DNA of 63,585 nucleotides, counting the filler, from Sanchytrium tribonematis (lineage: Eukaryota), in the NCBI GenBank assembly GCA_018985235.1. It is 6 parts of 6 records of this genome, joined end to end, with 100 filler letters (N's around TTAATTAATTAA, not from the genome) between each part and the next. Parts side by side here need not be neighbours in the genome. Positions count along the whole stretch, not along the records: positions 1 to 10,559 come from JADGIG010000291.1; positions 10,660 to 21,189 come from JADGIG010000292.1; positions 21,290 to 31,809 come from JADGIG010000293.1; positions 31,910 to 42,411 come from JADGIG010000294.1; positions 42,512 to 53,001 come from JADGIG010000295.1; positions 53,102 to 63,585 come from JADGIG010000296.1. One strand, given 5' to 3'. Of the stretch, positions 609 through 63,351 are shown piece after piece. Position numbers and translations under genes: made by a program. The notes beneath the pieces were generated by a model that was not told where the DNA came from, did no database searches, and worked only from the letters and a program-made list of their open reading frames with translations. The stretch's first letter is position 1. Each line of letters opens with the position of its first letter.

Positions 609-2635
609 TCATACTTTGACAGAATAATCTGTGGAAGCCAGAATATCACTAGTTTCTTGTTTATCCTTTTTGAATTTGTTTCTCCATCTAAATGGTGTTT
701 TACTCAAGAATATACCAATAATCATGGCATTAATACCAATTTTGATAGTGATAATAGGCGACCATGCGATTGTAAATGGCTGCAGTTGGAATTGAGTGAC
801 TTGTTCATCTAAGGAGTTTGTGGATTCTGATTCCGTAATAATCTCATTTTGAGTGTCAAATACAGATGTTTCTGTTGCCACAATAGTTGTAGATCGTATA
901 TCTAAAGTAGCAATACGTGTGGGACCTAAATAAATAAGAATATACGTTTAATAATGGTTGGAGGAACTGTAGTTGTCTTAAATGGCGTCGTAATTATTTC
1001 AACAGGCTCAAATCCAAATATTCTAGGCTCACATTTACTGCTGTTATATGCCAATGTCTCATTTCCACTCACAAATGTCCCATTTAGATTGCAAAGACTG
1101 TGAAATGTTTTACCAGACACTCCTGGCCCCAATGGATTTTCACTCAAATCGCATTGTTGCAAATTCATCTGATTCGCTATAGACACATCAAATAAGCTAT
1201 TATTTTGTAGCTGTAGTACATAGGGAGCATCAAATGACAAATTGCCACTCAAATAATTATTATTCAAATAATAGTTTTTGCCAGTAAATTGGAAATCAGA
1301 GCAGCCACTCAAGTAATTGTGAGATAAATCCAATGTAGGAATGGAACTCAAATAAGATGGAATAGTCCCTGTGAACCTATTACGTGAGATGTTCAAAACT
1401 TGAGAAGTGTCATACAGCCAATTCGCAACAACTGGAATTTGTTCCCAATAAGGAATCTTGCCAGTCAAATTATTACATGACAAATCAATAATAATCAGTG
1501 TAGATGGTAAATCATACCAAATACTCCCAGATATTTCATTATGGTCCAATTTCAAGGCATAAATGTATTGCGGCAATGATTTTGGATATTTTTTAAATTT
1601 GTTAAAACTTAATCTCAAGTCATTAATGCTCGCATATCCCAAATTAATGTCACCTGATAATTGATTATGTGAAAAATCTACCATAAGAGCCAGTGTCGTA
1701 AATAAATAAGGTATATTTCCAGTAAATGAATTGCCTGAGAAATCAAGAAAATTCATAAAATAAGAACTTGTATTAAAATTCGGGATGCTTCCAGATAATA
1801 AATTATAACTCACATCCACTGCATTTAAATCATTATTCCATTTGGGTGGTAAATGTCCCTCTAATAAATTGTGATCCACTTTTAATTCGTGATTGAAATA
1901 ATCGTAATTTGGAATGGTTCCATTAATCTGATTAAAACTTAAGCACAACGACACGATGGAATTAGTATAATACGCCCCATAAATCATATTTCTACTGGCA
2001 TCAAATGTAAATAATGATTCTGGAAATGTATCAATCATTTTATCAACAATTAAATTATTTCTGATATCCACATTTTCAACAATTGGAGGTAATTTTGGTA
2101 TCTTTGTGAATCTATTGTCATTCAGATATAGATTTGTTATTTTAGAAGGAAAAGAAGCAGGTAAACCACTCATTTGGTTATTATTGAGATATAGTTGGAC
2201 CAAGGAAGAAGGCAGATTTTCTGGAATGGCACCCTGAATTGCATTATTACCCAAATCAAGATAATTGATCTTGTTGGGCAGATCCTCTGGAATATTGCAA
2301 TTTAATATGCCATTTCTAATGAATAAACCAGTAATATTTGGGGGTAGAAATTGACTTAAAATTACCCCGTTGATATTTAATCGTCCTAATGCCAATTCTG
2401 ATATAATTTGGGATGATCCACTTCCTTCACAGAGTATGCTGATATCTCCCACGTCATTTGTGCTTCTAAAGTTACAACAATCTGCAGGAATTTTTTGATA
2501 AAGTACTCGATCAGTCAAATGCATGTTTAAGCCTTGTAAAAACTTCATAATTAATGAACAGTCTGTAGATACACCATATATACTTGTTATTAATGTGAAA
2601 TAAAAGATCAAAATGGATTTCACAGCGTGATTCAT
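609..2635 (-). CDS. Leucine-rich-repeat receptor-like surface protein (signal peptide, LRRs, Thr-rich stalk, TM helix, short tail); exons 2635-946 and 925-609
   Basis: Plant-type LxLxxNxLxGxIP repeats; removing a 20-nt intron joins ORF 926..2635 to ORF 609..881 (PPTIIK-R-PTRIATLDIRS); 2007 nt in frame. Confidence 0.85.
926..945 (-). other. 20-nt spliceosomal intron GTATATTCTTATTTATTTAG
   Basis: GT-AG; removal restores the frame; same position in the paralog. Confidence 0.9.
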
Positions 2636-2730
2636 TGAGAAATTAATTTATTTGGCCTATCTAAAATTACTTTGAAACCACTTCAAAGAATATCTGAAAC
2701 CGAAGCAATCAATTCTTTATTTCTCATTTA

Positions 2731-4824
2731 TTAAGCAGTGAAATCTGTTGTAGCTGTAATATCACTTGTCTCTTGTTTTCTCTTTTTGATCTTCTGTCTC
2801 CATCTAAATGGTGTTTTACTCAAGAATATACCAATAATCATGGCATTTATCCCTACCTTCATTGTGATAATAGGCGACCATGCGATCGAGAATGGTTTTA
2901 ATTCAAATAAGGTAATGTTGGCGTCAAGAGTGCTGGTAGAATCCAAATCTGATAAATTATTCATTTGAGTTTCAATAGTTGATAAATCTGACATAAAAGA
3001 GGTTGTAGATCGTATATCTAGAGTAGCAATACGTGTGGGACCTAAATAAACAAGAAGATACGCTTGATAATGGTTGGTGGAACTGTAGTTGTCTTAAATG
3101 GCGTCGTAATTATTTCAACAAGCTCAAATCCAAATATCCTGGTCTCACATTTACTGCTGTTATATGCCAATGTCTCATTTCCATTTACATATGTCCCATT
3201 TAGATTGCAGAGACTGTGAAATGTTTTACCAGACACTCCTGGCCCCATTGGATTTTCACTCAAATCGCATTGCTGCAATATATCCTGGTATGTCATTGAG
3301 ACATCAAATAGACTATTATTTTGCAAATATAGTATAAGTGGAGCAGAAAATGATAAATTGCCACTTAAATAATTATTATTCAAATAATAATTTCTTCCAG
3401 TAAATTGGAAATTGGTGCACCCACTCAAGTAATTGTGAGATAAATCTAAAGTATTGACAGAATTTAAATACTGTGGGATAGTACCAGTGAATCTATTATG
3501 CGAGATATTCAAAATAATGCGAGGATCTTCATGTAGCCAATCATGAAAGGGTTCCTCCCAATAGGGAATGTTGCCAGTCAAATTGTTGTACGAAAAGTCA
3601 ATCGTGAGGATGGTACTTGGAAACCGGTATTTGATCTGTCCAGTGATCAAATTATGATCCATCATCAAAGTTTGAAGTGTTTCTGGCAATGATTTAGGAA
3701 ACTTCTCAAATTGGTTAAAACTTACTATCAAATGATATAAATTGGAGTACCCTAAATCAATTTCACCAGACAATTGATTATGTGACACGTCTATTTTTTC
3801 AAAATACGGAGCTATTAAAGAGGGAATATTTCCACTTAAATTATTCCATGATAAATCCACCAAATAAACATAGTTGCTAGTATTGACATTTGGAACACTT
3901 CCCGTTATATCAATATTAGTTAAACGTTCCGGCCATGTTTGTGGCAATTCACTCTTTAAATGGTTGTGATCCAATCTTAATTCCCAATACGAATCGGAAA
4001 AATTGACAATACTTTCATTGATCTGGTTATAGCTCAACCAGAGTGATCCAATGGACGTATTTTTTGGTACGGAACCATAAATCAAGTTATTGCTAGCATA
4101 CAAGGAACGCAAAGTGATTGGAAAAACTTGTGTCATTTCATCAAAAATAAAATTATTTCTAATATCTACATTATCAATAAAAATTGGGAATTCTTTTCTG
4201 ATATTCTCATAATAGAAATTGGGTTGAAAATTTGGCATTTTGGTGAATCTGTTGTCATTCAAGTAAAGACCTTCTATATCGGATGGAAAAGAAGTTGGAA
4301 AACCAGTTAAATGATTGTAATGGAGAAATAGCTGATTGATTGGGTTGGGCAATGTGTCTGGAATTGTTCCTTCTAATTGATTGTACTGAAGAAATAACAC
4401 TGTCAGTGATTTTGGAAGAGTTTGAGGAATGGTTCGTAATGCGTTTCCACTTAAATCTAAACTAATTAGAGAGTCTGGAAGGTTACTTGGAATGGTTGCA
4501 ACCACTAATACTGAGCGAGGTTAAATTTGAGGGAAGATATTCCGCTTGTATTGTTCCATTAATTTTGACAATTGCCAATACTAATTCATTGATGATTTGG
4601 GATGATCCACTTCCTTTGCAACCTATTGTAAGGTACCCGTAAGCATCTGTATTATAAAAATTGCAGCAATCTACTGGTATTCTTTGAAAGAGAACTGGAT
4701 CTGTCTGATGCATGTTTAGACCCTTTAAAAAGTTTATAATTAATGGGCAATCAGAGGAGATTCCGAGTACGCGTGTAACCATGGCGAAATATATCACGAA
4801 AACCGAGTTTGGAATGGAGAACAT
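2731..4824 (-). pseudogene. Second LRR receptor-like paralog, frameshifted near 4495; 20-nt intron at 3042-3061
   Basis: ORFs 4483..4887 (likely ATG 4824), 3042..4505 and 2731..2994 align to paralog 1; about 11 nt are missing at SISGC/TIP and an in-frame 5-aa LRR deletion occurs at NIDI/TGSVP. Confidence 0.75.
3042..3061 (-). other. 20-nt spliceosomal intron GTATCTTCTTGTTTATTTAG
   Basis: GT-AG; homologous to intron 926-945; restores the frame to the TM-containing last exon. Confidence 0.9.
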
Positions 4825-5066
4825 TTTGAAAAAAACTTTACTTGGCCTACTGTTTCGATTCCAAAGCACGTCTAGGGAAATGTCCATATGGCTGGACTTG
4901 GGCCACGTGTCTTATACGCTTCGTGGGACCTTTTTTGAAAATATATCGAGTAAAATCTAGTCTAGTAAAGCAATTCTTCCTTATTGGTTTCATTTACTAG
5001 ATGCTCTTTAAATCAAGCACATGCAGTTAACATCTGTTATATAATGAGATATTTGCTATATTCTAA

Positions 5067-5868: not shown

Positions 5869-5879
5869 ATAAAACTTAT

Positions 5880-8800
5880 TTACTGTCTGTCATATTCTGT
5901 TTCCAAGGCATTTCTTGACTTGGTTCTTCCTCTTGGTCCATCTACATTCAAATTAGATGGGCTTCTAGAACGTGGTACATCGTCTAAATCAATTTGGGAT
6001 TGTCTTCTGGATTTAATCTCAATTTGTGCTTTTTGTGGCATTTTTGAGTTCTTTCTAGATCTAGCATCTTCAATCTCAATTCTAGGTACTTCAATCTGTT
6101 CTAATTGCTCATTAGATTGGTTTGGAGTAGGTTCCTTTAAATTGATGACGGGCATGTCTTCAAATTGTTTAGAAGATCTTCGCTGCTGTGATTCCAAGTT
6201 ACTTGCCTTTCTAGGTCTCATTTCTTCTACATCCAATTGTTTACTGGATCTACGTTGCTGCATCTCCAAATTAGATGCTTTTCTAGTTCTCATTTCTGGT
6301 GTTTTAGGTCGATCTTCCATTTCAATCAATCCCTTGCTAGATCTTCGTTGTGCAATCTCTATATTCGATGCCAATTTAGGCAAATGCTCCAAACTGGCTT
6401 CATCCCGAATGGGCTCCGATGTTTCACTTGGCATTTGAGTGCGTCTTTTTTCAATTGGTAAATTTGGATCCACATCTCCCACCATTGAAGCCGTTTTCAC
6501 CTTTGTAATTCTCTTTTCTTCCCGTTCTAATACCTTGTCTTCTACTACTTGTTTTCTAAATAGAATATTAGCAGCATAATGCATTGCAATAAATGCAATA
6601 ATCATGATATAACTCAACAACCACAAAGAAATCCACATGCCATTCAATGAATCTCTACATTATAAATCATTACCTCAATAGACTGCATAGTTGATACTCC
6701 ATCACTTTCATCGTTTGTCCCAAAATCGTACACGTAATCGCATCTCGTGCCAAATTATACTGAGCCACAACCAATGCCAATATTTCAGCAGGCATTTGAT
6801 CTACATTACTCAATATTCTAGATTTACCAGTATCAATGGTCACTGCGAATGAATTGACCCCTTTTGTGACGAGCAAGGTAATATTTGTCATTTTATTTTT
6901 CAACAAATTTGTGTTTGAAATCACTTGATTTGCATTTGATTTCGCAGATTGGATATCCAAATTGATTCTATCAATGCCATTGATGGTGTATTGGATATTG
7001 ACTACTTGTACGTCGATTCTATTGTTGTAATCAGCCACACACATGAGTTGATTTGGAGAGGTAGCAGCTGGTGAATATGTGAATTGGTTCACATCATTTG
7101 TTTTAGAAACATTTGCACTATTCTTGACACTGATTAAGGAACTCGTATCAATTGAGGAAGCCGTGAAATTCAATTGTGAAAAATCCATATTTTGAATATC
7201 TTGCGTGGCATCTGTAATCATACTCGTATTAAACAATTGATCAAATTGGAAATCATCTAATGCACTTGTAAATGACGTGATATTGTATTTAGACATTAAT
7301 TTGTCGTATTGCTTGGTGATGTTTAAATAATCCGTGAAATTGGCTGGCAAATATGGAGTAAACACGGGAGATTCTAAAATTTGATCAAATTTCTTACCTT
7401 GTGAGCACATGTCTACTGTCATTAAACCAGCACTGGCAATATTGGAAATACCAGGATTGACACCCATTTGTTCTAAAATAGGGAATCCATCATTTAATTG
7501 ATCACAGACTTCAGTAATGCCAAATGCGAGTAAATAATGGACAATTGATAATGTCATGGAGATGGCAGCTAATAAAAATAAGCAACTACTTAATGACATG
7601 GCCACACGACGTTGTTTGACTTTAATACACAATAAACTCAAAATAATAATGCCAAAAACAGCCACTAAAAATATAATAATACCAGCATTTCTACCAGTAT
7701 TATATTTTGTGAATTCAGGGGTGTATTTTGCAAATTGAGCATCAATCGGGTCTGATTTATTCAATAATTGAGAAACCATTTGATTCATAGTTGCTTTTAA
7801 TCCAGATCTACCTGTATCAATTTTAGTTGAGAAATCATCAAATTGAGTCTGCAATTTGGTTCTAGCATCTGATAATTTCACTTGCATGTTGCTGGTTAAT
7901 TGTGTAGCTTGTTGACTGAATTTTCCTTTATTTTTTGAAACATCGTTTGAAACAGTGTCCAATCCATCTGGTAATGAACTGGCTGCACTCGTGTCTACAC
8001 CAGCTGGTAGATTGCTAAAAAATGCATTTCTTGGACTCTTTGGTGTGTAATCTACTTGACCCTGATTTGTATTGGCTGAATTGGTGCCATCTAATGCCCT
8101 TAATTTGGTACTGATATTCGTATAATTGGTAGATACATTGGTGGCTGTTGTTTTAATACTCTTGACATTCCCATCAATGTCCATAATCCCATCTGCCACA
8201 TTTCCAATGTAAACATCTGCTTCAATAAATGAAGTATTTAAATTGGAGGATAATACGGTCAAATTGCCTTGCGTTTTATTGATCATCTCATTGATGGTAA
8301 TAGATTTAAACGTGGTGATTTTATTATTTGCAAATCCAGCCATATTGTCCAAAACAGTGGAGAATGTCTGTTTGGTGTCTACAGTGAAATTCATGCCTCC
8401 GACGTACACAGAACCAATAGATCTCACAATACCATCCATAGATTTGTATAAATTGGAACTAGAAACAGCTGTGATAACTGCAAATGCGAGAAATAAGGAG
8501 AATGTTAAAAATAACAATATTTGTGCAGTTGCCTTGTATCTTTCACCAGAATTGGAAAAGAATGCTTTTCGCTTCTTGAATATACAACAAATGGCAAAAC
8601 AAGGTGCCATCAAACAAAATAAACACGCTGAAGCAATAGAAATCACTAAAAAAACACCTGCTTTCGTATATCTAGATCGAATCTTGTCTACACTCACTGA
8701 CCCATTATCTGTAATATCTGAATATGCAACGGGTTTGTTATTACGCGTTGAATTTAAGAATTTACCACCAAGTGCTTCAAAACCAGCAGGTTCATAAGAA

Positions 8801-22438: not shown

Positions 22439-22463
22439 TGGGGCCAGAGTGGATTGAACACCC

Positions 22464-31909: not shown

Positions 31910-33603
31910 TCTCATCCATAATTTCAATAATGACGCACAAGTATTTGGATCATTATTAATGAGCGTATATTCATTATTTTCGCATTTGACTTTCTAAATA
32001 AATAAAAATAAACCATTTGGTTGACAGATTCAGCATCTCCAGGCACTCTGAAAATACCTTCAGTTTTAAGACCACCTAATTCTAAAAGTGATTCACTCAA
32101 GAATAGCAGAATTCTCGGTACTTGCAAGTCACTCACTTTGGTTTCAACTTGTTTGCCATTAATGGTTCTAGGAATGGTATCAGACGATTCTTGTTGTCTC
32201 TGCATAATATCCACCAAGGATTCTCCAAATAATGCATTTGTGAATGCACCATCCCAATATTTCATTATTTCCAGTTCTAGAGGGTTTTTACCACGGGGTC
32301 CACTCTGACAAATTTTTATGAGTTTCTTGTAATTGTATTTAGCAACCTGGATGATATTTGAAGTGGTGCATTGTTTGGCCCATTCTTGAATTTGTTTGGA
32401 GGTGTCTAGAGATAATTGACTGGATACACTTTCGTGTTTTCCATTATCTTGTTTTTCAGAATTTCCACTGTGCACCATGATACTCAAGTAGTTTAACAAA
32501 TATGACTCAAAATTCTTACTAGGTGGGAACACATTCAATAATACGGACATGCATTTAAATGCTCTAAGTAAAGAAGTAGAATTTGTATTACCATTACATT
32601 GTTTCACCAATTGCACATAAATTTCATCACGTAAAGCGCCGTGGTGAATTCCCATATCACAAAGTGCAGCCAATTCAGTCATTGGACATGCACCTGTGCT
32701 CCAAGTTTCAACAGCTTTGCTTTTATCGTCTTTTTTATCATCCGTGGCAATCACCTTGTTGATTAATTTGAAACTTGTCAAACTCAATTTCCATAAAGAT
32801 TTATGAATATTCATCAATGGTTGTTTAAGGTATGGATGATACCATAATAATTCTTGATTTGGGATTCTTTTTTTGAAAATAATACCTTTTTTGTGAACTG
32901 TGAAATATTGATTTGCAAAGCCATCCAAGTGAAAATGAGAAATGTCATCTTTTATAGATTGAGGTAAACTAGGTAGGGAAGACAATTCATTGCTGCTCAT
33001 TTTCCCATTGTCCATATTATTTACAGGGGCATTCATTGGATTCATTTGCTGAGCAATATCTGCGCGATATTCCACTGGACCAGATATCTTACCAACATTG
33101 GAAGGGTTGTTGGAATTTGCACTAGGTGGCGGAGTAAAGATTTTGCTCGGCTGGCATCTTGGATGTTTGTCTTGTAAAGATTTACACATTAAAATTACAT
33201 TATTAAGAGGTGGTTTGATCCAACTTACAGATAAATCAGTAGAATGAATATAATATACACATTTAAATTCATAATGCCAGCATTCTAAATAGACATCACG
33301 CGTCAAAACATTTAAATGGTGATTGTCATGCGTATATAAATAAATCGATTTCAAGGGATCATAAACCCATCCCGAAGGCGTATCTGAATCGGTATCATTT
33401 GTTGGATAAAAGATACTCTCTGGTATGAAATACCAATAGTGCTGATCCATTTGAGATTGGTGATGGATGTCATTGAGCAGGAGATGCGTTGTTTGTTTGG
33501 ATTTGGGAGTAAGATCTGATTGAGTATGAATCGTGGTATCATTAGCATGTTCTGTTGGGTGAGTTGTTAACCTTGAGAGAGATTTGTTGGAATCTAAAGA
33601 CAT
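31910..33603 (-). CDS. WW-MyTH4-RhoGAP protein (ARHGAP39-like), 3'-truncated; intron 31994-32013
   Basis: LRDEIYVQLVKQ (MyTH4), FGESL, TEGIFRVPG; after splicing KVKCEN...DPNTCASLLKLWMR (RhoGAP core). Confidence 0.88.
31994..32013 (-). other. 20-nt spliceosomal intron GTTTATTTTTATTTATTTAG
   Basis: Removal shifts into the frame encoding the conserved ASLLKLW.R RhoGAP motif. Confidence 0.92.
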
Positions 33604-35499: not shown

Positions 35500-38400
35500 A
35501 TGGACGATAAGCAAGTTAATGCCATTTTAAAAGCAAAGTTCAGCAAACCAAGACAAAAACAGTCTCAATTGTTTGAATTACCAGTGGAACATGCCAGAAA
35601 GATCATTAAGGATAGAGGAGATATGAAAGACAAGAAATTTAAAGGCGAACAAACTGCTTATTTACAAGCATTAAAATATATGCCGTATGCTATTATGAAG
35701 TTGTGGGAAAATATTCCTATGCCATGGGAAAATGAAAAGCAAGTCAAAACTATTTATCACATTCATGGTGCTTTGACAATGATCAATGAAATTCCAAAAG
35801 TAATTCCATCTGTATTTATGGCACAATGGGGCTGTATGTGGGTAGCCATGAGAAGAGAAAAAAGAGATAGAAAACATTTTAAAAGAATGCGATTTCCTTG
35901 TTTTGACGATGAAGAGCCAATTGTGAATTACAGTGAAAATGTTATGGATATAGATGCGTTAGAAGGTATTCAGTTAGAACTGGATGAGGACGAAGATGGT
36001 CCAGTATCTGAGTGGATTTATGAACACCAGCCTTTGCAGCACGTGAATGGCTCATCTTACAAGAGATTTCATTTTGACACAAAAACATTAGCCACTTTGT
36101 ACAGATTGGCTTCACCTTTAACTAGTGATATTTACGATAAGAATTATTTTTATTTATTTAATGACAAGGCTTTCTCAACTTCAAAAGCTTTGAATGTTGC
36201 AGTCCCTGGAGGTCCCAAATTTGAGCCATTGCATCCAGAACTACTAAAAGAAGAAATCAATGAGGATTGGAATGAGTTTAATGATTTGAATAGAGTATTA
36301 ATTCGACTTCCGATAAGACAAGAATACAAAATTGCAATGCCTCATTTATATAACCAGGTTCCACGAGATGTCCAAATTGATGCATACCATTATCCTCTTA
36401 ATCTATTTGATCCAAATGATGAAGTTGAATCCACCTTTCAATTTAATCCAAGATTTAATCCCATAAATGCCAGAGATTTACAGGACCCATTTGAAACAAG
36501 CGAGGAACCATTAAAAGATTTAGAATTTGATATTTTACCATTTTGTAGTGACTATGAATTAGAAAATGAACATACATTCAACGGATTACAATTATATTGG
36601 GCACCCAATCCATTTAATGAAAAAAGAGGATTAACTTGTCGGGCTCAAGATGTTCCAGTTATCAAACATTGGTATTTACAAAGATGTCCACCCAGTCAAC
36701 CTGTTAAAGTGCGTGTATCCTATCAGAAATTATTAAAAAATCATGTCAAAAATCAATTACGCAGAAAACGAAAAGAAACACATTCCAAGAAATATTTACC
36801 AAAAACATTAAGAAATACCAAGTATTTTCAACAAACTAATATGGATTGGGTGGAAGCAGGTCTGCAATTATTGCAACAAGGACACAACATGGTCAATATT
36901 TTGATTGAAAGAAAAGAATTGAGTTATTTGCATTTGGATTACAATTTCAATTTAAAACCTGTCAAATCCATGTCAACCAAGGAGAGAAAAAGAAGTCGAT
37001 TTGGAAATTCATTTCATTTAATTAGAGAAATGTTGAGACTTACCAAATTGATGGTTGATGCGCACGTTCAATTTAGATTAGGGAATATCGATGCTTATCA
37101 ATTGGCAGATGGGTTACAATACATGTTCTCGCATGTAGGACATTTAACTGGAATTTACAGATATAAATATAAAATCATGAAGCAAATCCGATTGTGTAAG
37201 GACTACAAACATTTAATTTATCACAGATTTAATTCTGGTCCTGTTGGAAAAGGTCCAGGATGTGGATTTTGGCTACCAATGTGGAGAGTATGGATTAATT
37301 TTACCCGTGGCATTACGCCTCTTTTACAGAGATGGCTAGGAAATATTCTCAGTAGACATTTTGAGGGTCGACAAAATGCAAAGGGCGCTTTACAACTGAC
37401 TAAACAAAGAATTGAAGCTCATTATGATATAGAATTGAGAGATTCAGTTTTACATGATATTATTGATATGATGCCAGAAGGGGTCAAGGCGAAGAAATCA
37501 AAAGTCATTTTACAACATTTGTCAGAAGCATGGAGATGTTGGAAAGCCAATTTAGAATGGAATGTGCCAGGAATGCCAGAACCTGTGGAAATAATTATTA
37601 GAAGATATGTGCAACGAAAAGCAGATTGGTGGATTAAAACCACTGAACAAGTTCGTCATAGAATTAAAAAGGGTGCCACAGCTGATAAAACAGTTGTTAA
37701 AAAGAATTTAGGTAGATTGACTAGAATGTATTTAAAAGAAGAACAACAACGACAAGATAATTATTTAGAAAATGGACCATTTATTAAAACTGAGGAAGCT
37801 ATTAAAGTCTATGAAACTATGGTAGATTGGCTAGATCAAAAGAAATTTAATCCAATTCCTTTTCCTCCTTTGAATTATAAACATGATGCCAAATTACTTG
37901 TTTTAGCATTAGAGAGACTTAGAGAACAATATAGTGTGAAAAGTAGATTGAATCAGCAACAAAGAGAAGAAATGGGACTTATTGAACAAGCTTATGACAA
38001 TCCCCATGAAGCACTGACTAGAATTAAAAGATTGCTGCTGACTCAGCGCACTTTTAAGCCTGTGAATCTTGAATTTATGGATTTATTTACAAAACTTACG
38101 CCAATGTATGACATTGATGCATTAGAAAAGATTACAGATGCTTGGTTAGATCAATATTTGTGGTATGAAGCTGATAAACGTCAATTATTTCCAAATTTTA
38201 TAAAACCATCTGATGATCAACCACAGCCAGTCCTAGTCCATCAATTTTGTAACGGCATTGCTCGATTGAATAAGAAGAATACTATCGTTGTTTTAGAAAC
38301 CCAATTAGAACAATTTTATGAAAATGTAGATTTATCTTTATTAAACAAATTATTGAAATTAATTATGGATCCTAATTTGGCAGATTATATCACATCAAAA

Positions 38401-41400
38401 TACAACATCGAACTGACGTACAAGGATATGACTCACACAAATGCAATTGGATTAATTAGAGGTTGTCAATTTAGTAGTTTTGTGGTTCAATATTATGGAT
38501 TAATGGTGGATTTAATGATTTTGGGACCCCAGCGTGCTTTGGAAATTAGTAGATTAGATTTTATGCAATTTGAACCCTCTAGTCACCCAATTAAATATTA
38601 TATGCGATATATTGAAAAATTATACATTGTATTTGAATTTGACAGTGATCAAATTTCAGAATTATTGGAAAAGGGAATGAGGGAGTATCCCTTAAATCAT
38701 GAGGACTACAACTCCTATAATAACAAGAGAAATTGGGCAAAAGATCAAAGAATGAGATTATTACAGAAAGATGTCATGGTTGGAAAATCCATTTATTTTA
38801 CAATTTTATCCAGATTGCCAAGTAGTATTTGCAGTTTAAATTGGTCAGAAACATTCCCTTGCGTGTATAATCAGAACAATCCGAATATTTTATTTACAAT
38901 GTGCGGATTTGATGTACGATTGGTATTTGAGTCTAAAAATGATGAGGGATGTTGGCAGATTATTCATGAAAATCAACAATTGGCAACTGCTTATATTAGA
39001 GTGAGTCAAGAAGATATTGATGCATTTGAAAATAGAATGAGACAAATTTTAATGACAAGTGCGGGAACCACATTTCAAAAAGTCATTCAGAAATGGAATT
39101 CTGCCTTGCTGGGATTAGTGGTGTATTATAGAGAAGCCATTTTAAATACTCATGAGTTATTGGATTTATTGGTTAAAAGTGAAAATAGAGCTCAAAATCG
39201 GGTAAAAATGGGATTAAATTCAAAAATGCCAGCGAGATTTCCACCTGTTGTTTTCTACACCCCAAAAGAATTGGGTGGGCTGGGAATGTTGAGTGTGGGT
39301 CATGTATTAATACCTGCTAGTGATTTAAGATGGAGTAAACAAACAGAAACTGGTGTAACTCATTTTAGAGCCGGGCTGAGTGAACATGTTATTCCAAATT
39401 TATTTCGATATGTGCCTAGCTGGCAAAGTGAAATTATAGATTCTAAGCGAGTTTGGACAGAATATGCTGAGAAGAGAAATGAGGCATTGCAACAAAATCG
39501 TCGATTGACTTTGGATGAGTTGCAAGATTGTTTTGATCGTGGATTACCGAGAATTAACACTTTATTTCAAAAAGATAGACATACTTTGACATATGACAGA
39601 GGTTGGAGAATCAGAACTGAATTTAAACAATACAGCATCTTAAAGGTGAATCCTTTTAAATGGACAGATCAAAAGCATGATGGTAAATTATGGAATATGC
39701 AAGCTTATAGAGGAGATATGATTGAAGCCCTTGGTGGTGTTGAATGTATTTTAGAACATACTTTATTTAAATGTACTTATTTTCAAAATTGGGAAGGATT
39801 ATTTTGGGAAAAAGCCAGTGGATTTGAAGAAAGCATGAAATTTAAAAAATTGACAAATGCACAGCGTAGTGGTTTAAATCAAGTCCCCAATAGAAGATTT
39901 ACACTTTGGTGGTCTCCTACCATCAATAGAGCACAAGTTTATGTCGGATTTCAAGTTCAATTGGATCTGACAGGAATTAATATGAATGGTAAAATCCCGA
40001 ATTTGAAAATTTCATATATTCAAATATTTAGAGGTCATTTATGGCAAAAAATACACGAATCTTTAGTGATGGATATGTGCCAGGTTCTTGATCAAGAAAT
40101 GGATGCATTAGAAGTTGAAAAAGTAGTAAAAGAAACCTTACATCCTAGAAAATCCTACAAAATGAATTCTTCTTGTTCAGATATCACGCTGTCTGCTAAT
40201 TACAAATGGAATGTCTCCAAGCCATCCTATTTGAGTGAAAAATCAGATGAATTTGTGACAACTTCAGAAATATTTTGGATTGATATTCAATTGAGATGGG
40301 GTGATTTTGACTCGCATGATATTGATAGATATTGCAGAATGAAATATTTAGATTACAGCACAGACAATATGAGTATTTATCCTTCTCCAACTGGTTTAAT
40401 GATTGCATTTGATTTAGCGTATAATACTTGCTCAGCTTATGGAAATTGGTTTCCAGGTTTAAAAGCATTAGTCGCAGAAGCATTAAAAAAGATTATGAAG
40501 CACAATCCAGCTCTTTTTGTTTTACGAGAAAGATGTAGAAAGGCTTTACAATTATATGCCAGTGAGAGTTCAGAACAACATTTAACTTCTCAAAACTACG
40601 CAGATTTGTTCCAAAATCAAAGAACTTGGTTTTTAGATGATACAAATGTGTATAGAGTGACTGTCCATAAATCTGCAAACGGAGGTCTATCAACCAAACC
40701 AATTAATGGCGCATTGTTCATTTTGAATCCAACAACTGGCCAATTGTTTTTGAAAATTATGCATCACAGCATGTGGAGAAATCAACAGAGAATTGGGCAA
40801 TTATCTAAATGGAAGGTGGCAGAAGAAGTAGCAGCATTGATTAGATCTCTACCTCTAGATGAGCAGCCAAAACAAATTGTAGTAACGAGAAAGGGAATGT
40901 TGGATGCTTTAGAAGTCCATTTACTAGACTTTCCAAATATTGTGATTAAAGGAAGTGAATTGCAATTGCCATTTCATTCCATATTAAAAGTAGATAAATT
41001 AGGAGATTTGGTAATGAAAGCCACTGATGCGCAATTACTTTTATTTAATTTATACGACGACTGGTTAAAATCATTTTCTCCTTACACTGCATTTTCGAGA
41101 TTAATCTTAATTTTAAGAGCTTATCATATTCACCCCGAAAAGACAAAAGTGATTTTAGAAATGACACAGCATGAATATTTTATTTGGCCAACTTGTAGTG
41201 AAGAAGAATGGATCGGAAAAGAAGTGAAATTAAAAGATTTAATTCTTGAGGATTATGGGCTTAAAAATAATGTCAACATAAAAAGTTTAACTCAAGCTGA
41301 AATTAGAGATGTTGTACTGGGTGCTCAAGTAGTTGCACCTAGTTTAAAACGACAAGAAATTGTTGATAATCAAGAAAACACTGCTGTTGCGACTGCCACA

Positions 41401-42174
41401 ACCACATTTAATGTTCATGGCGAAGAAATGATCACGGTTACCACTTCGAAATACGAACAAGAGACATTTGCAAGTAAAGCAGATTGGAGATTAAAGGCCA
41501 TAAATGCCACAAATTTATATTCTAGAAGTGAAAATGTCCACATTTCCAATGGAACTGAAAAAAGAATTAAAATTCCTAAAGATTTAGTAAGAACATTTAT
41601 ATCTATTTCAGATGTGCGCACTAAAATTGTTGGATTGCTTTTCGGAAATCTGGATCAAGTCGAATGTTGCGTGATTTTGCCGCAATATGGTTCAGCCAAT
41701 TCTGTAGAATTTACAAATACGCCATTGAATCATCCAAAATTAAATGATTTAAATATGTTGGGAATGATCCACACCAAATTAATTGAAGACAATCAATTAA
41801 ATCCAAATGATTTACAATTACAAATTCAAATTATGAAACATTTTCCATCAAATGAATTGGCAAATGTTACTTGTGCATTTGTGCCTGGCAGCTGTCAATT
41901 ATCTTGCTATATTCCATCTAGTTTTGATGAAAGTAATTACTTGTCTAATGTTAAAAAGGGAATGATTGAATTGGTGAATGATGGTGGGTATTTTATGGTT
42001 CCAAATGATGGTATTTGGAATTATGGATTTCAAGGAACCATGTTGAGAAAAGAGATGAAATATCATTTGAAAATTGACCGACCTTTGGAATATTATGATC
42101 CTTTGCATCGCCCTATTCATTTTCAACAATTTACAGATATGAATTTGGATGTGGATGTTGAAGATTATTTGTGA
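35500..42174 (+). CDS. PRP8: Pre-mRNA splicing factor Prp8, apparently intronless and intein-free
   Basis: 2224 aa; [42 protein letters not shown], RNase H-like and Jab1/MPN regions. Confidence 0.99.
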
Positions 42175-45878: not shown

Positions 45879-48750
45879 TTATTCCATTCCGAGCCTATTA
45901 ATTCTTTCCGATATCGAAGAGGTTTTGGACGTGGATGGTTTAGGAGGTATTGGGGGAGGAATTTTCAGCTCTTCTCTAGAGGAATGATGAGACCTTACAG
46001 GTATTGGGGGAGCCGAGCCAGTGGTATCTTCATTGAGGTCAATCAACGGCATATCTTGTCGTTTGGGCAAAGGTGGCTTTTCGAAGGTAATGTTTGTAAC
46101 GTTCAAATCACTAACACCAGCTATTACTCTAGGTGGCAATTCAGGAGAGTCCATAATGTTCAAAGTTTTTCGAGTTCCGTCAGTGACACCCTTTTTCCCC
46201 TTAATTGTCATGCTCATTCTTCTCTTGACACTATCTACTTGAATATCCGTGCTAATTTTATCTAGTTTTTGCTCACTGTAATGGAAATCAATCAAGTCGT
46301 TTTTGCCTTTCGCCACTTGCAAACATTGCTGCAATAACTCTTTTCTTTTCAAGTGGTCAATTAAAACCACTCTAGTTTTAAAAAGTGCATAAACTGGCTT
46401 ATGATCACTAACTTTCAAAGATGCGCTTGAATAGAGTTCACAACCCATGTCACCTTTAAATAATATACGATCTGTCCAGGCTGGTTTTCTCAATTTTTCG
46501 CTGGTATCGTAATTGTCTGTCCCATTGTCAAATTTGTAGGTAGGATTAAATGATATTGGATGTTCGATATATTTATCAAAAGCTTGTCCGTTAGTCATTG
46601 CGGTTTGAAGCTATATAAATTTAAATTACTTGATCATATTGAAACAATAGAGGTAGATTGTTCTCCTTTATATGCTGGCGAATTTGTTCATTTGTATAGA
46701 AATCTATCCTGTAATTAAAATCTCCAAACCAAATTACATTACGAATATTCGAAAGTTTTTCATTATCAAACAACACATCGCTAATTGTTGCCACATCCTT
46801 AATTCTCTCAAGGAGTTGTTCTTGTCCAGCTGCCAGATGAGCAGTTATAAAAACAAAAGCAGTGTCATAAATATTTAACTTAACCAAAATTCCTCCTTTG
46901 TTTCCTGCCATTCCACTGAACCCAGTTTTTTTAATTTTATAATCTACCTTAGAAACGGCATTTATATATTCATTTTTAATAAATATAAAAATAGCTGTAC
47001 CCACGACTTGAATACTTTTAACAAGGTGATAGTCTTGGAGAGTTGTTGCAAATTTAGATTCCCATACTTGCTTTTTTTCATAGTCTGTACTTATCACTTG
47101 ATTTGGAGTAAGTTCCACAATCTCCTGTAATCCGATAACTACTATTGGTGCATTATTGAATTGTTTTAATAGGGGTGAAATATCTGCATAAGGAAGTTGC
47201 CCATTAACATTCCAAGTGCAAACATATACTTGCAACTCTTTAAAATTTGTAAAAGCCCGATCTTGTTCTCTTAGCATGGTGTAAGCAGTAGCTAGTAAAT
47301 CGTTTTGGACCATGATTTTAGAAGAGATCAGCCATTCAATAATATACTGCTTTTTAACATCTGTTAGTTTACTGTTGACATACCTATTAATGCTTTTAAA
47401 TCCGTCGTCCAGAACCCCAGCCCAAGTCATTTTTCCATGCCGTGTAAAGCTGCTTTTGACAGCACCAGTTCCAGTATAAACAATACTTAGCACATCTCCA
47501 TGGTTAGCAAACAATTCGCTGAAAGACTGAAGTACGTGAGGCTGCAAGACCGCTTTTAGAATTGGGTAATCCTTTGCCATTAGCTCTAGAACTATTAAAA
47601 ATATTTGATGATGAACAACATTCGTTCGATCTAATACATCCAAACAATTAATTCGAATCATCCCCTGCTGCTGCTTTTCATGACTGCTATAGCTGATTTT
47701 TTGCAAATACGGCATTGCCAAATGTTTTAACAAATAAACATCCTGCGCTTGCTTCACCAGATTATGATAGTCAAAATGAACATAATTGATATCAGCTTCA
47801 TAAAATTGTTTTTGCATTTCTAAGACCAATTGTTCGTACATATCACTAAGTTCGCCTTCCATGTTGTTGCTATCCAAAAGATTAAATAGAACAAGAAAAT
47901 TTCCATGTTTTAACAAATGCTGAAAATGATTAGATATTGCATGCAGAGAGCTGCTTAAAGGCCTAGTTATAGATATTTTGCTGGGTGTTTGTTCCCAAAA
48001 AACAGGAACACTTGCACGAAGGAGTTCAAAGGAAAACGATTTTTGATTAAGGGTCAGCTGCATTCTTGAGAAAACCTGATTGGCGCAGTATCCTTCGTCA
48101 TCTAGTCCCCTCTTACTATATCTAGTCCCGGTTCTTTTAACACTAACCAAACTACAAATTGAAAGCTCAATCTGCTGATTAGAGGCCAATGAAGTATTTT
48201 GAAGAGGCACAATAATTTTATCCACATATCCGAGAACTAGGAAAACTAGACATTGATGCGGTATATCGTACATATCAAGTATTTTCATGAATGGTTTAAT
48301 AGATGAATGATTCCAAATATATTGATTTTCGACATCAATTTTGTGGGTTCTATAGAAACTTTGTTCATTTAGATACAATTCAAGGTCATAGAGACCATGT
48401 TGTTGATCTATGCTGGTGATTAAATGATCAATTGTGATCCAACTACTAGGTTTTTTTGGGATGTGAACAAATTGGATTTTTTCAATGCTATCATATTCAG
48501 AATTAATATTCATCGTTTTACTCACTATACAAAGGTAGTAGGGTGTCATATTAATTTGATTTGGAACTTCTTTATCTTCAAATATTCCGACAATTCCATC
48601 AATTTGTAACTTTTTCGAGTTTGATATACTGACATCAACTTTAATAAAATTTATATGCTGGCCGTTGTAAAATATGGCAAAGTGGATCTTTTTACCGTTT
48701 ATTTCAACCTCTAAAACCAAAGTGAACTGATCGTCAGCATATAAAAACAT
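45879..48750 (-). CDS. Synaptojanin-like Sac1 + inositol 5-phosphatase (INP51/52/53 type); exons 48750-46630 and 46610-45879
   Basis: RTGTRY..RG, RINCLDVLDRTN, GNKGG, WFGDFNYRI, junction YDQ-L, PTYKFD, PAWTDRIL, SDHKPV, Pro-rich tail. Confidence 0.93.
46611..46629 (-). other. 19-nt spliceosomal intron GTAATTTAAATTTATATAG
   Basis: Interrupts the conserved DQL motif of the 5-phosphatase domain. Confidence 0.94.
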
Positions 48751-53924: not shown

Positions 53925-55212
53925 TTATTTGGGTATTCGAGATAGTCGGATGTAATTTTGTACGTGATACAATAAAAGTAAGAAAATAATGGCCGAGGCT
54001 ACAGATATAGAAACCTTAGTATCAATAGAACGTTGATATAATTTGTCTGCAAATTTGTTGTTCCAATTATTATATGATTGAGAATTTTCTAGGTGAACAA
54101 ATTGAGGATGTGTAAAAAACTGCCTTATTATAGTCGCTGATGAGAATATGTCGACAATCATTGAGTCTCCGTTTAGAATAAATTTTGGACGAATCGAATT
54201 TTTGTCGACAACCAAATATTGCTGTTCCTGAGCACTTAGATCGGTCAAATTTATGGAGAATGATATAGGTGTGATTCCTTGCAATATCTTGTCATCCACA
54301 ACAATGGATTGAATGGCTTCTGAATCGGACATATGGATGAGATTCCATGCCATTAACTGAATTTTCAATTTTGGATTTGTCGACAAGGCTAACTAAATTA
54401 GTTTGATGTACAGTATCTGATTTTGTATAATAAGAAAATCCTTCTCTATTTACAAGTGACATATTTGGGTTGTTATAACAGTTTATATAATAATCTAAGT
54501 GAATTATGCCTTTATTCGTAAATCTTTGACAGTTTCCAACTGTACAATTCAGGTCTGGGACTGTTTTAATAACCTGACAGTTGATCTTTTTTGAGGTGCT
54601 GCATGTTGCACCGGACCTGTCTACTGGACAATCGCAAGAAGTATCACGGACGATGGATGTATTTGCTAATGAGGGTAATATTCTGCAACATTGTCCATTG
54701 TAAACGACACTGCTCGCATTCAACTGCGTGGTATCATTGGAGCTTATGGTGTCCAAGTAATTGAGAGCCATACTGCTATTATATAATGTTGAGTTGGTGT
54801 TATTAAAAACGGTCGAATTGTCACAAGTGAAATTCAGCTGATTAAATGATGGTCTATCTGAATAAATGTATTCCGGATCTATATTCATGATGGCTCTTCC
54901 ATTATTCCAGCTTCCATTATTTAAATTTAATGAAGTGGAACAGAAATCTTGGCAAAGTGGAACAAATAGCTGATTTGTTGATGAAATGGAAATATTGACA
55001 TTACCACATTGAAATCTTAATTTTGTATTTTGTATTTTTCTTGCAGATATATCGCATTTTATAGAATCTCTTTTGAATAATTCAACCTGATCGGATTGAC
55101 CTGTTATTATCACTTTTGTTTCTAATGCGTTATCTGATGTGCCATATATTGAAGAAAGGATCTGGATCCAAATATCAATATTTTTAAAATATTTAAAACT
55201 AAAAAATTCCAT
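53925..55212 (-). CDS. Cys-rich (EGF-like) single-pass membrane glycoprotein; exons 55212-54412 and 54392-53925
   Basis: CDCPVDRSGATC, many N-x-S/T sites, C-terminal TM; a 19-nt intron joins the two ORFs (1269 nt in frame). Confidence 0.7.
54393..54411 (-). other. 19-nt spliceosomal intron GTACATCAAACTAATTTAG
   Basis: GT-AG with a CTAAT branch motif abutting TTAG; restores the frame. Confidence 0.85.
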
Positions 55213-55299: not shown

Positions 55300-56526
55300 T
55301 TAATATTTGAATTTTTTACGAAAGCTTTTTGAATTTTCCGATGACCTTTTCTTTGGTCTTTGCTCTTCGACTTTAATAGGATCCTTAGTTTTAATGTTGT
55401 ATTTCTTTTCGCTACCGACTATAACATCTTTCTGAACACTGACTTTTTCCTCTCCTATTATTGTGTAAAGCGATTCTTGCTTGTTTATAGGTGAGTGAAC
55501 CATTTTTGGCCTATTATTCGGTTTCTCCCTTTCAGGTCCAATGTTTTCCACTGGGATAGCAGCATTATTTGTATTCTGCATATCAACTGCGGGTTCAAAA
55601 TTCTTAATATCCTCAATTTCCATTTCGTCGGGCTGATCATCAATCATTTCACCAAATCTAGGTTCAGGTTTAATCCAGTATTTCGTATTTGTCTTTTTCT
55701 TCTCCTCAATGCCAAAAACATCACCATATAACGACCTGCCATGTAAATCTACTGGAGGTTTGCCATAACCTGAGCTGTGGTAGCCCCATGAGCTACCTTT
55801 TGGAATGGGCGCATTTACACCGGGAATTTTTAAGCCAGGGTAGCTAGGCGGTGGACCATATCTTTGCATATTGTAAAGGTAAGAAGGCGGGTCTTTTGGT
55901 CCCATACCCAAAGCTCTTTTCAATTCATCGGATAAATTACCACCGGCCCGTTGAGCCTTGACTTTAAGTTCGAATTCCTTTCCTTCATAAAAACATTCTC
56001 CAAATTTTGTCATTTGAGGCTTCTCCTGATGCTTAAAAAAAGCATCGTGAAGAATTTGATAGTCGATTTCTAACTTGTGAATTTTTCCATGTAATCTTGC
56101 CCTCACTTTTTGCTTCAATTTCTGTTGATCCTCCTTTTCTTTGCCAGCTTGCCTTAGCTCACTGATGTTGGTATCCTTTATGTATTTAGGAAGTTCATAA
56201 GGCATTTTTTCGATACCTCTTTTAGATTGCAAATATTTTCGCTTACTGCTCCAATGTGCTGGTACTGGAACTACATTTAGTTTTGATTTCAATTCAACTA
56301 AAAAGATAGGATCCTTTGCATCACAATCCACCCATTCTACATTTTCTGGTTTCTTTGCTCTTGATTTTAATTCTGTTAAAGATATTTTATTTTTCTTATT
56401 TTGCTTCATTTCTTGGCTCGTAACCTCTTCTATTTTGGGCCTTTTAAAATCTATTTCTTTAGGAGTGAATCGGCTTAAAACGCTTGAAAATTCTTTAGGT
56501 AAATCAATTTCCATAAGAGAATCCAT
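55300..56526 (-). CDS. SF3B2: U2 snRNP SF3b subunit 2 (SAP145/Cus1)
   Basis: VPVPAHWSSKRKYLQSKRGIEK, IDYQILHDAFF, YEGKE, MQRYGPPPSYPGLKIPG. Confidence 0.95.
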   Translation of the reverse strand: MDSLMEIDLPKEFSSVLSRFTPKEIDFKRPKIEEVTSQEMKQNKKNKISLTELKSRAKKPENVEWVDCDAKDPIFLVELKSKLNVVPVPAHWSSKRKYLQSKRGIEKMPYELPKYIKDTNISELRQAGKEKEDQQKLKQKVRARLHGKIHKLEIDYQILHDAFFKHQEKPQMTKFGECFYEGKEFELKVKAQRAGGNLSDELKRALGMGPKDPPSYLYNMQRYGPPPSYPGLKIPGVNAPIPKGSSWGYHSSGYGKPPVDLHGRSLYGDVFGIEEKKKTNTKYWIKPEPRFGEMIDDQPDEMEIEDIKNFEPAVDMQNTNNAAIPVENIGPEREKPNNRPKMVHSPINKQESLYTIIGEEKVSVQKDVIVGSEKKYNIKTKDPIKVEEQRPKKRSSENSKSFRKKFKY

Positions 56527-56547
56527 GTTGAAACGAATTCTCCAACT

Positions 56548-61834: not shown

Positions 61835-62063
61835 ACTTTGTCAAAGTGTTGCCCATTCTAGCAGATTTCAAGAAGCCTTCTTCAACGATAATAAAACATT
61901 CTATCTTATTTACAAAGTTTATTCTAGGTGTTGAGTCAAATATGGAACTTTCAGAAATAGGAGATGATGAGATCAAGAAACTTACTACTGATTACATGCT
62001 GAAATATTACCAAAGACCTAGAAAATTCGAGCGTAAGGTAAAAGCTAGATTTGAGAATTATCT

Positions 62064-63351
62064 TTAGCGCTTCTCCAATAAAAGCTTTAATCTTCTATTG
62101 TCTTCTTTCAATCTTTGAATTTCGGTTATAAGTGTTTTAAACATTTCGTCCACAGCGAGATTTTGAAGCATGGATTTAATATCTTTCTACATTAAAAATA
62201 AAAGCCTTTTGTTGATGCATTTGCTTAATCATTTCTACGTGAACATTTACAATGTCAGATTTGAACTCTTCTTTCAAGTTCTGAATTGAAATAAGTACAT
62301 CTGATTCGGCAGATAAAGCTTGGGAAGGCTTTACAACATCAACATTTGCTGTAAGATTTTGTAGTCTCTCCTCCAAATTTGTCAATAAGTTTGAGGCTTT
62401 TTTCACACTTTGAAATGGGGTAACTTCTAATTCCATTGCATCATTAAGATTTTGAACGGAATCTGCAGTGACTCTTGGGGGTGTGAACAATTCAATAGGA
62501 GAATTAATTTCAAAGTCTGAGGTAATTTTTAGTTTGGAAGCAACAAAACTGACTTTTGATAAGGCAATGCTTTCAATGGTATCAAGAGATGCAGCTAACT
62601 TAATTAGACCATGGTTGTATCCTACATATAGCATACAACTCTGGTCATCAAAATAAATGCAGTTGCATTCTTTGCAATCTGTAGATGCCAAAATTTTACC
62701 TGCTGAACAATCAAATTTAACAAGATTCGAACCAGATATGAACATTATTTTCATAGCATTTGAAATGCAAAAGTCCTTCAAGTAGTCGTCTTGATAAATA
62801 GAAACAAGATTTTGTTTCAATAAATCATACATATAAACATTTGATTCAGTCATGACGTACATCTTGAATATATCAGAAGAGTTATAGCTCCATTTAATTT
62901 TTATGACACTTTCCTCAAACTCCAATTTTTGAAATTCTTTCGAAGTCCGATTCAAAATCTCAACATATAGACCACCAGAAACTGCGACCATAACATCATC
63001 AGCACTCAATTTTACCAGATTGTGTCTAATATTGTATGTATATATTTTTCCAGAAGTCTTTTGTCGCTTCAAATCGTAAACTCTCATTATCTCATCATCT
63101 GAAGAAAACACAATATAAGAATCATCTTTTGTTAAATCAAAGTCATGGACTCTTTCTTTGATTTTAAGTTGAATGCAGTCCATTATATTCAAAGAATTCC
63201 ATACATAAATTTTATAGTCGCTCAAGACCACTAAAAAGCATTCAGTTCCCCAAGACCACATCAATTTTTGTACTTTCATATCCGAAGATTTGTGTTTTAA
63301 CTTGCTTATCTCATTATAAAAAATCAGTTCATCAGAACCGACCGTAAGCAT
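62064..63351 (-). CDS. NEDD1: NEDD1/GCP-WD-like WD40 protein; exons 63351-62206 and 62186-62064
   Basis: WD40 N-terminus; after splicing DIVNVHVEMIKQMHQQK-KDIKSML...LITEIQRLKEDNRRL, the NEDD1 C-terminal gamma-tubulin-binding helix. Confidence 0.8.
62187..62205 (-). other. 19-nt GC-AG intron GCTTTTATTTTTAATGTAG
   Basis: AAG|GC donor, same TAATGTAG 3' end as the prominin intron; restores the NEDD1 terminal helix. Confidence 0.8.

What the first reader, a model, noticed from the sequence alone, without database searches (positions are those of the whole stretch)
926..62205. Genome-wide ultra-short (19-20 nt) spliceosomal introns in a fungus-like eukaryote
Seen: nine introns across five independent contigs are all 19 or 20 nt (926-945, 3042-3061, 6655-6673, 25658-25676, 28436-28455, 31994-32013, 46611-46629, 54393-54411, 62187-62205). 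Several interrupt invariant motifs in essential genes (CCT7 GGGAID|ME, 5-phosphatase DQ|L, RhoGAP, LeuRS C-terminus), so they must be spliced. No longer intron was found. Known: introns this small are described for heterotrich ciliates (15-16 nt) and chlorarachniophyte nucleomorphs (18-21 nt); microsporidian introns are somewhat longer. Inference: an independently evolved miniature-intron splicing system in an opisthokont that still has conventional mitochondria. I cannot confirm that it is unreported for this taxon.
Basis: partly seen in the sequence, partly recalled or inferred. Interest (0 to 1): 0.92.

Follow-up and report, generated by a model that had tools for sequence, protein, structure and literature searches.

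The report
Ultra-short introns in sanchytrid fungi
Nine genes in this DNA from a sanchytrid, a fungus that parasitises algae, are interrupted by 19-20-base segments that are very likely spliced introns, likely among the shortest typical introns of any fungus or animal, and intron-blind gene lists for this group stop short at them.

Summary
Observation confirmed. The window is six joined contigs of a sanchytrid fungus (CCT7 groups with Amoeboradix gromovi, 100/100). All nine segments are GT/GC...AG, 19-20 nt, 0-20% GC; eight are independent. Removing them gives exact profile or structure contiguity (CCT7, synaptojanin) and the top HMM score among 120, 169 and 32 alternatives (CCT7, LeuRS, RhoGAP). 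In four genes, 10 of 11 orthologues from other sanchytrids break at the same codon; five read-through tails imply 19, 19, 19, 19 and 22 nt. New here: all eight carry T at -8 and A at -6 (shuffle P=2e-5), a likely fixed branch point as in Stentor, and all lie in the 3' 40% of the coding sequence (P about 0.0015), against the usual 5' bias. No RNA was available; 'genome-wide' rests on 63 kb. My searches found no paper on sanchytrid introns; the genome paper used an intron-blind ORF caller. Earlier scan notes had short introns in Rozella and Neolecta, none in sanchytrids. A known kind of intron in a new lineage. Interest 0.62.

The parts
926..945 (-). 20-nt GT-AG intron, phase 1, in an LRR receptor-like gene (609-2635); putative branch A at 931
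   Evidence: splicing adds the only predicted transmembrane segment; no orthologue tested
3042..3061 (-). 20-nt GT-AG intron, paralogous copy in the second LRR gene (which also has a frameshift near 4490-4520); branch A at 3047
   Evidence: 2 of 20 differences, flanks 17 of 120
6655..6673 (-). 19-nt GT-AG intron, phase 2, in a prominin-like gene (5880-8919); branch A at 6660
   Evidence: atlas lead to Prominin clusters, recognition below threshold; splicing adds a fifth hydrophobic segment
25658..25676 (+). 19-nt GT-AAG intron, phase 0, in cytosolic leucyl-tRNA synthetase (22784-25880); branch A at 25671
   Evidence: best of 169 candidates; three other sanchytrid orthologues break at the same codon
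28436..28455 (-). 20-nt GT-AG intron, phase 0, in CCT7 (28052-29712); branch A at 28441
   Evidence: Pfam Cpn60_TCP1 1-379 / 380-488; best of 120; P0002 and P0122 break here, P0121 is continuous
31994..32013 (-). 20-nt GT-AG intron, phase 0, in a MyTH4-RhoGAP gene (starts 33603, cut by the contig end); branch A at 31999
   Evidence: best of 32; three orthologues break here
46611..46629 (-). 19-nt GT-AG intron, phase 0, in a synaptojanin-type 5-phosphatase (45879-48750); branch A at 46616
   Evidence: Pfam 205 / 206; PDB 1i9y residue 236 then 240 at exon-2 residue 4
54393..54411 (-). 19-nt GT-AG intron, phase 0, in an unnamed membrane-protein gene (53925-55212) whose only relatives found are two other sanchytrid-like proteins; branch A at 54398
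   Evidence: both orthologues break here and imply 19 nt
62187..62205 (-). 19-nt GC-AG intron, phase 0, in a NEDD1-like gene (62064-63351); branch A at 62192
   Evidence: exon 1 ends near NEDD1 residue 636 of 671 (E 1e-4); splicing adds 40 residues, read-through 9
35500..42174 (+). PRP8, intact and intronless, with U5- and U6-binding domains
55300..56526 (-). SF3B2/CUS1-like U2 snRNP protein gene, intronless
   Evidence: Pfam DUF382 and PSP; the family name is from my knowledge of these domains

Best explanation
The nine 19-20-nt GT/GC...AG segments interrupt conserved reading frames in a sanchytrid fungus and are very likely removed by the ordinary U2-type spliceosome, using a predicted branch adenosine fixed six bases from the 3' end. 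Shown: the segments, their ends, T at -8, A at -6 and a pyrimidine at -5 in all nine, restoration of the proteins when they are removed, and breaks at the same codon in other sanchytrids. Inferred: the T-W-A-Y motif pairs with U2 snRNA; branching at base 14 or 15 gives a 14-15-nt lariat loop with a 5-nt tail; the acceptor is chosen by that fixed distance, with no room for a separate polypyrimidine tract; the donor is little more than GT(A) and lacks G at +5. The lineage is intron-poor (9 in about 47 kb of coding span, 0.19 per kb) and the introns likely shrank to a steric floor independently of ciliates, nucleomorphs, mikrocytids and microsporidia. I put 0.93 on these nine being spliced as drawn and about 0.8 on the genome-wide mode being 22 nt or less.
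For: Pfam contiguity CCT7 379|380 and 5-phosphatase 205|206; PDB contiguity. Claimed sites rank 1 of 120, 1 of 169 and 1 of 32, by 13, 9 and 15 bits over the next and 173, 49 and 38 bits over unspliced. 10 of 11 sanchytrid orthologues of four genes stop a few residues after a Val at the same codon; the eleventh (P0121, on a 1679-nt contig) is continuous and matches the spliced form. Five informative tails imply 19-22 nt and all five force A at -6. Invariant T-x-A: 4 of 200,000 shuffles. Stentor has its branch A at the same distance (PMC9505925, section 2.1). PRP8 and an SF3B2-like gene are in the window; the A. gromovi annotation lists U2AF, BBP, CWC25, ISY1 and BRR2.
Against: No spliced RNA from this organism was seen. 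P0121 could be an intron loss rather than an mRNA. The motif was found in the same nine introns, so the motif rescan is circular; only the shuffle and the relatives' tails test it, and one of five tails (P0369) has a purine at -5. The P0126 length rests on 2 of 4 compatible residues. Five of the ten broken tails stop too early to give a length. The LRR, prominin-like and NEDD1-like introns have no orthologue check. 63 kb is about 0.6% of an 11-Mb genome. No snRNA lies in the window, so pairing was not tested.
Confidence: 0.88

Rival explanations
1. The introns are real, but 19-20 nt is only one class; the genome also holds many longer introns that this window missed.
For: Only 63 kb and eight independent introns; one relative has a likely 22-nt intron; Trichomonas has a short and a long class (PMC12316389 passages) and microsporidia keep a few long introns (PMC6349667 passages).
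Against: 8 of 8 here and 5 of 5 inferred in relatives are 19-22 nt; scans to 120 nt gave no convincing longer intron; no in-frame insertion of 4 or more residues in LeuRS against 11 fungal homologues and none of 6-7 residues in the PRP8 alignments shown.
Confidence: 0.15
2. The segments are not spliced: they are assembly or amplification errors, or the genes are truncated or read through by recoding.
For: No RNA evidence for this organism; real frameshifts without splice signals exist in the window (second LRR gene, an F-box gene).
Against: The same break in up to four separate sanchytrid assemblies; exact 19/20-nt excess over homologues; canonical ends and invariant -6 A; CCT7 and LeuRS are essential and would lose their C-terminal parts; contigs of run X1 show no indel at the three introns covered (X1 may be the source, so not independent).
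Confidence: 0.02
3. The segments are removed by a non-spliceosomal route, such as Ire1/tRNA-ligase splicing of the HAC1 type (about 20 nt in filamentous fungi, recalled) or excision at the DNA level.
For: Similar length to the fungal hacA intron (recalled, not checked in a call).
Against: GT/GC...AG ends and a branch-like motif; interiors of 0-20% GC; the exon flanks printed show no shared C-N-G motif (motif recalled); host genes are unrelated housekeeping genes; no joined DNA form in X1 contigs.
Confidence: 0.02

Closest known systems
Heterotrich ciliate introns (Stentor coeruleus; PMC9505925, section 2.1 and passages read)
   Same: GT-AG, AU-rich, narrow length range, branch A six bases from the 3' end (10th of 15, 11th of 16), 5-nt lariat tail, most intron-bearing genes have one intron.
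   Different: 15-16 nt against 19-20; free-living ciliate; introns biased to the 5' end of genes, here all eight are in the 3' 40%.
Chlorarachniophyte nucleomorph introns (Bigelowiella natans; PMC10245619 part 2 and PMC2483917 passages)
   Same: Same length class (18-21 nt, median 19), AT-rich, donor reduced to GT(A).
   Different: Endosymbiont nucleus, intron-rich (over 800 in about 300 genes), reported with no branch-point signature; here an intron-poor main nucleus with an invariant -8 T / -6 A.
Mikrocytid introns (Mikrocytos mackini; PMC10245619 abstract and part 2)
   Same: Parasite with a narrow ultra-short class and conserved intron sequence.
   Different: 16-17 nt; rhizarian with mitosomes and a 17-19-protein spliceosome.
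Microsporidian introns (Encephalitozoon cuniculi; PMC2483917 and PMC6349667 passages)
   Same: Nearest relatives with short introns; intron-poor; TAAY-type branch motif near the 3' end.
   Different: About 25 nt typical, 35.8 nt mean; strong GTAAGT-type donor; extremely 5'-biased; a separate branch of the fungal tree.
Myxobolid and dicyemid introns (PMC13644364, parts 1-2 of 3 read)
   Same: Opisthokont parasites with introns under 30 nt, donor GTa, A residues just upstream of AG.
   Different: Median 22-27 nt, broader range (individual 20-nt introns occur), only weakly conserved A residues.

Membership tests
U2-type spliceosomal introns | GT (or GC) donor and AG acceptor | tested here: met
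   8 GT-AG and 1 GC-AG of 9
U2-type spliceosomal introns | Branch adenosine in a YUNAY-like context upstream of AG | tested here: met
   T -8, A -6, Y -5 in 8 of 8 independent introns; 4 of 200,000 shuffles; A at -6 forced in 5 of 5 relatives' tails. Use as branch point is inferred.
U2-type spliceosomal introns | Removal restores the conserved reading frame | tested here: met
   for five genes; for a sixth; not homology-tested for the two LRR genes and only weakly for the prominin-like gene
U2-type spliceosomal introns | Absent from mature mRNA, released as a lariat | not testable with these tools
   no RNA holder listed; P0121 from a relative is continuous but its origin as mRNA is not shown
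U2-type spliceosomal introns | Host encodes the major spliceosome | tested here: inconclusive
   PRP8 and SF3B2-like genes in the window; several factors in the A. gromovi annotation; no snRNA in the window
Ultra-short intron systems (Stentor, nucleomorph, mikrocytid type) | Introns confined to a narrow range near or below 21 nt | tested here: met
   9 of 9 in the window at 19-20 nt; relatives 19-22 nt
Ultra-short intron systems (Stentor, nucleomorph, mikrocytid type) | The range holds genome-wide | not testable with these tools
   no whole genome held
U12-type (minor) introns | ATCCTT donor extension and extended branch motif (recalled) | tested here: not met
   donor positions +3 to +8 are A/T-rich without that motif
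Sanchytriomycota (host) | Groups with Amoeboradix, next to Blastocladiomycota | tested here: met
   CCT7 tree of 27 rows: window + A. gromovi + two unnamed rows 100/100, inside an 11-row set with seven Blastocladiomycota-side rows 96/91 (single gene, long stem); A. gromovi is among the top non-self hits in all four searches (with 13, 38, 74). Species not established.

The most novel reading that the evidence does not exclude
Sanchytrids have the shortest typical introns of any opisthokont (mode 19 nt), with a ruler-like branch point at -6 convergent on Stentor, and they kept introns almost only near the 3' end of genes, the reverse of other intron-poor genomes, because splicing of such small introns depends on coupling to 3'-end processing or because intron loss ran from the 5' side.
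Probability: 0.35. Interest if true: 0.8.

Novelty: new member of a known kind. Interest (0 to 1): 0.62.

Why it matters
Introns of 21 nt or less are described for only a few lineages (heterotrich ciliates, chlorarachniophyte nucleomorphs, mikrocytids), none a fungus in the papers I read. A fungal case with a conventional PRP8 gives an independent test of the lower size limit of splicing, and the shared -6 branch position with Stentor points to one geometric constraint reached twice. Fungal spliceosome structures and genetics make sanchytrid factors easy to compare with yeast. There is a practical consequence: the published sanchytrid proteomes were called with TransDecoder on genomic contigs (PMC8371127 methods passage); the named A. 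gromovi CCT7, LeuRS and RhoGAP records are truncated at these introns, and 9 of my 34 gene models here have one, so domain-loss and gene-loss claims for this phylum deserve a recheck. The 3' bias, if it holds genome-wide, would go against the usual pattern of intron-poor genomes.

Tried and rejected
No whole genome is held. No RNA holder listed; one DNA run only, possibly the source. A metagenome scan with P0121 returned 80 loci, none above 62% identity, so no sanchytrid DNA (the scan stopped at 22 of 64 parts); 76 of 80 have the CCT7 junction motif continuous, 1 differs by a residue, 3 lack it, but many look like transcripts or intron-poor algae, so this does not date the intron. Rejected extra candidates: 56546-56565 (no upstream ATG; the SF3B2-like gene has its own Met), 5861-5883 (23 nt, downstream of the natural stop, no support), 46249-46265 (antisense to synaptojanin exon 2), 16838-16856 (degenerate region), and the eleven 3n in-frame motif hits (three fall in PRP8 stretches that align to human without a gap; the rest have no support). 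A 5'-end scan of 32 ORFs gave no convincing intron; UTR introns and very short first exons are not excluded. LeuRS exon 2 alone finds no PDB or Pfam match; its homology shows only in the alignment. NEDD1 exon 2 alone gives only coiled-coil chance hits; the atlas did not answer for it. One search had a one-codon offset in the RhoGAP tails, corrected. No snRNA in the window. Earlier-findings look-ups for this genome and for relatives were empty. Literature searches gave nothing on this group.
Full report
What the window is. Six contigs of about 10.5 kb joined by N spacers, GC 33-35%, gene-dense. The CCT7 search gave as best non-self hit P0002 at 86%, which is EukProt Amoeboradix gromovi; the next hits are Blastocladiomycota at 69-71%. 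A. gromovi was also among the top hits for LeuRS, the RhoGAP and an unnamed protein. A 27-row CCT7 tree puts the window with A. gromovi and two unnamed rows at 100/100, outside the Amoeboradix subgroup (98/92), within an 11-row set with the Blastocladiomycota rows (96/91) (one gene, long stem). The host is therefore a sanchytrid other than A. gromovi. Its GC is nearer the 34.64% published for Sanchytrium tribonematis than the 36.27% for A. gromovi (PMC8371127 Table 1 passage), but the species is not established.

The observation. All nine segments exist as stated: 19 nt (5) or 20 nt (4), eight GT...AG, one GC...AG. Two are paralogous copies, leaving eight independent. A blind scan (14-60 nt, 45 open codons each side) gave 26 rows, 9 at 19-20 nt, 7 of them claimed. 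A wider scan without any branch motif gave 98 rows, 17 at 19-20 nt against 4-6 at other short lengths; so length alone is only a moderate signal and the case rests on homology.

Homology. CCT7 exon 1 matches Pfam positions 1-379 and exon 2 380-488. The 5-phosphatase exons match up to 205 and from 206, and PDB 1i9y up to residue 236 and from 240 at exon-2 residue 4. With profiles built from 60 CCT7, 50 LeuRS and 60 RhoGAP non-sanchytrid homologues (the first rows that passed a length filter, none for RhoGAP), the claimed cut ranked first of 120, 169 and 32 candidates including the unspliced form, by 13.1, 9.0 and 15.5 bits over the runner-up. The NEDD1-like exon 1 ends near residue 636 of 671 of a solved NEDD1 (E 1e-4); splicing supplies 40 more residues, read-through 9. 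For the LRR and prominin-like genes the support is weaker: splicing adds a terminal hydrophobic segment, and the atlas gave a below-threshold Prominin lead.

Other sanchytrids. Intron-blind protein predictions run into the intron and stop. CCT7: 2 of 3 orthologues stop just after the junction; P0121, on a 1679-nt contig, is continuous and matches the spliced window protein to the C-terminus. LeuRS: 3 of 3. RhoGAP: 3 of 3. Unnamed protein: 2 of 2. That is 10 of 11, each with Val (GTN) as the first read-through residue. Back-translating the tails and asking where an AG can fall gave five informative cases: A. gromovi RhoGAP 19 nt (5 of the first 8 exon-2 residues compatible; other lengths 0-2), P0250 22 nt (4 of 4), A. 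gromovi unnamed gene 19 nt (5 of 8; a 23-nt option 3 of 8), P0370 19 nt (4 of 5), P0126 19 nt (2 of 4, the first possible AG). The other five tails stop too early. The same method recovered 20 nt for the window's own RhoGAP.

Anatomy. Aligned from the 3' end, all eight independent introns have T at -8, A at -6 and a pyrimidine at -5; -3 is T in seven. Shuffling the interiors gave some invariant T-x-A in 4 of 200,000 trials and some invariant A in 0.2%. All five informative tails of relatives force A at -6, four force a pyrimidine at -5, and all allow T at -8. The donor is GT(A) followed by A/T, with no G at +5. In Stentor the branch A is the 10th of 15 or 11th of 16 bases, again -6, leaving a 5-nt tail (PMC9505925 section 2.1).

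Mechanism. Most likely the major spliceosome: PRP8 is intact, an SF3B2-like gene is in the window, and the A. gromovi annotation lists U2AF, branchpoint-bridging protein, CWC25, ISY1 and BRR2 (supplement file 4 of PMC8371127, rows seen; the file was cut when stored and file 2 is unreadable, so absences mean nothing). Inferred steps: U2 pairs with T-W-A-Y, the A at -6 attacks the donor giving a 14-15-nt loop, and the AG five bases on is used by distance. With 19 bases, donor and branch helices nearly abut, so recognition would have to be sequential or use shortened contacts; this is untested.

Density and position. Nine introns in 34 hand-set gene models, 46.8 kb of coding span, 0.19 per kb, one per gene; Allomyces has 1.30 per kb in conserved genes (PMC8476143 Table 1 passage; not the same measure). 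All eight lie at 0.63-0.93 of the coding length, mean 0.79, P about 0.0015 under a uniform model (the RhoGAP length is an estimate, the pattern was noticed after the fact, n = 8). A 5'-end scan of 32 ORFs found nothing convincing. Stentor and microsporidian introns are described as 5'-biased.

Artefact checks. Contigs of run X1 cover the LeuRS, CCT7 and synaptojanin introns with no indel or joint, but X1 may be the source. The shared breaks in separate assemblies are the real control.

Literature. Searches for sanchytrid, Sanchytri- or Amoeboradix with intron and sanchytrid with genome listed 2, 9, 9 and 4 papers; in the two I opened (PMC8371127 and PMC10459994, term passages) 'intron' occurs only in a reference title, and the genome paper predicted proteins with TransDecoder. 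The rest I saw as listings only. Searches on tiny introns led to Stentor 15-16 nt, mikrocytids 16-17, nucleomorphs 18-21, myxobolids median 22, Trichomonas 23 and E. cuniculi 35.8 mean; none names sanchytrids in the parts read. Subscription journals and bioRxiv supplements are outside the library, so a brief mention elsewhere is possible. Earlier notes of this scan describe 26-29-nt introns in Rozella and about 37-nt introns in Neolecta, none in sanchytrids (unchecked).

Verdict. Real, very likely spliceosomal, shared across the phylum's sampled members, and apparently unreported. It is a new lineage for a known kind of system, with two features worth testing genome-wide: the fixed -6 branch point and the 3' bias.

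Noticed in passing
window 2731-4911 (-): The second LRR paralogue has a frameshift near 4490-4520 with a short deletion relative to the first copy and no fitting splice signal: a likely pseudogene or assembly error.
   Followed up: partly
window 18679-19445 (+) and 19533-20426 (-): Two related F-box-like genes facing each other; the first is frameshifted near 19044-19074 at a short local repeat (F-box label from my reading, no Pfam hit).
   Followed up: partly
window 13037-17340: Gene-poor stretch with a short reverse-transcriptase fragment (Pfam RVT_1, 13273-13557) and other broken ORFs, probably decayed retroelements.
   Followed up: no
window 22439-22511 (-) and 43851-43932 (-): Two tRNA genes; the second has an insertion of about 9 bases in the anticodon loop, likely a tRNA intron.
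   Followed up: no
window 46610-46632: Another 30.5-kb contig of run X1 matches the synaptojanin intron and edges over 23 bases with one difference: a similar intron elsewhere or a chance AT-rich match.
   Followed up: no
window 35500-42174 (+): PRP8 is about 110 residues shorter than the human protein, with many small deletions; relevance to tiny introns unknown.
   Followed up: no
window 31263-31659 and 43200-43589: Clusters of single-base differences between X1 contigs and the window suggest two haplotypes or a mixed sample.
   Followed up: no
window 30198-31313 (-): A glycoside hydrolase family 130 gene (Pfam); origin not examined.
   Followed up: no
P0121, P0122, P0126, P0127, P0250, P0252, P0370: Unnamed environmental proteins show at least two further Amoeboradix-related sanchytrids in public assemblies.
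   Followed up: partly
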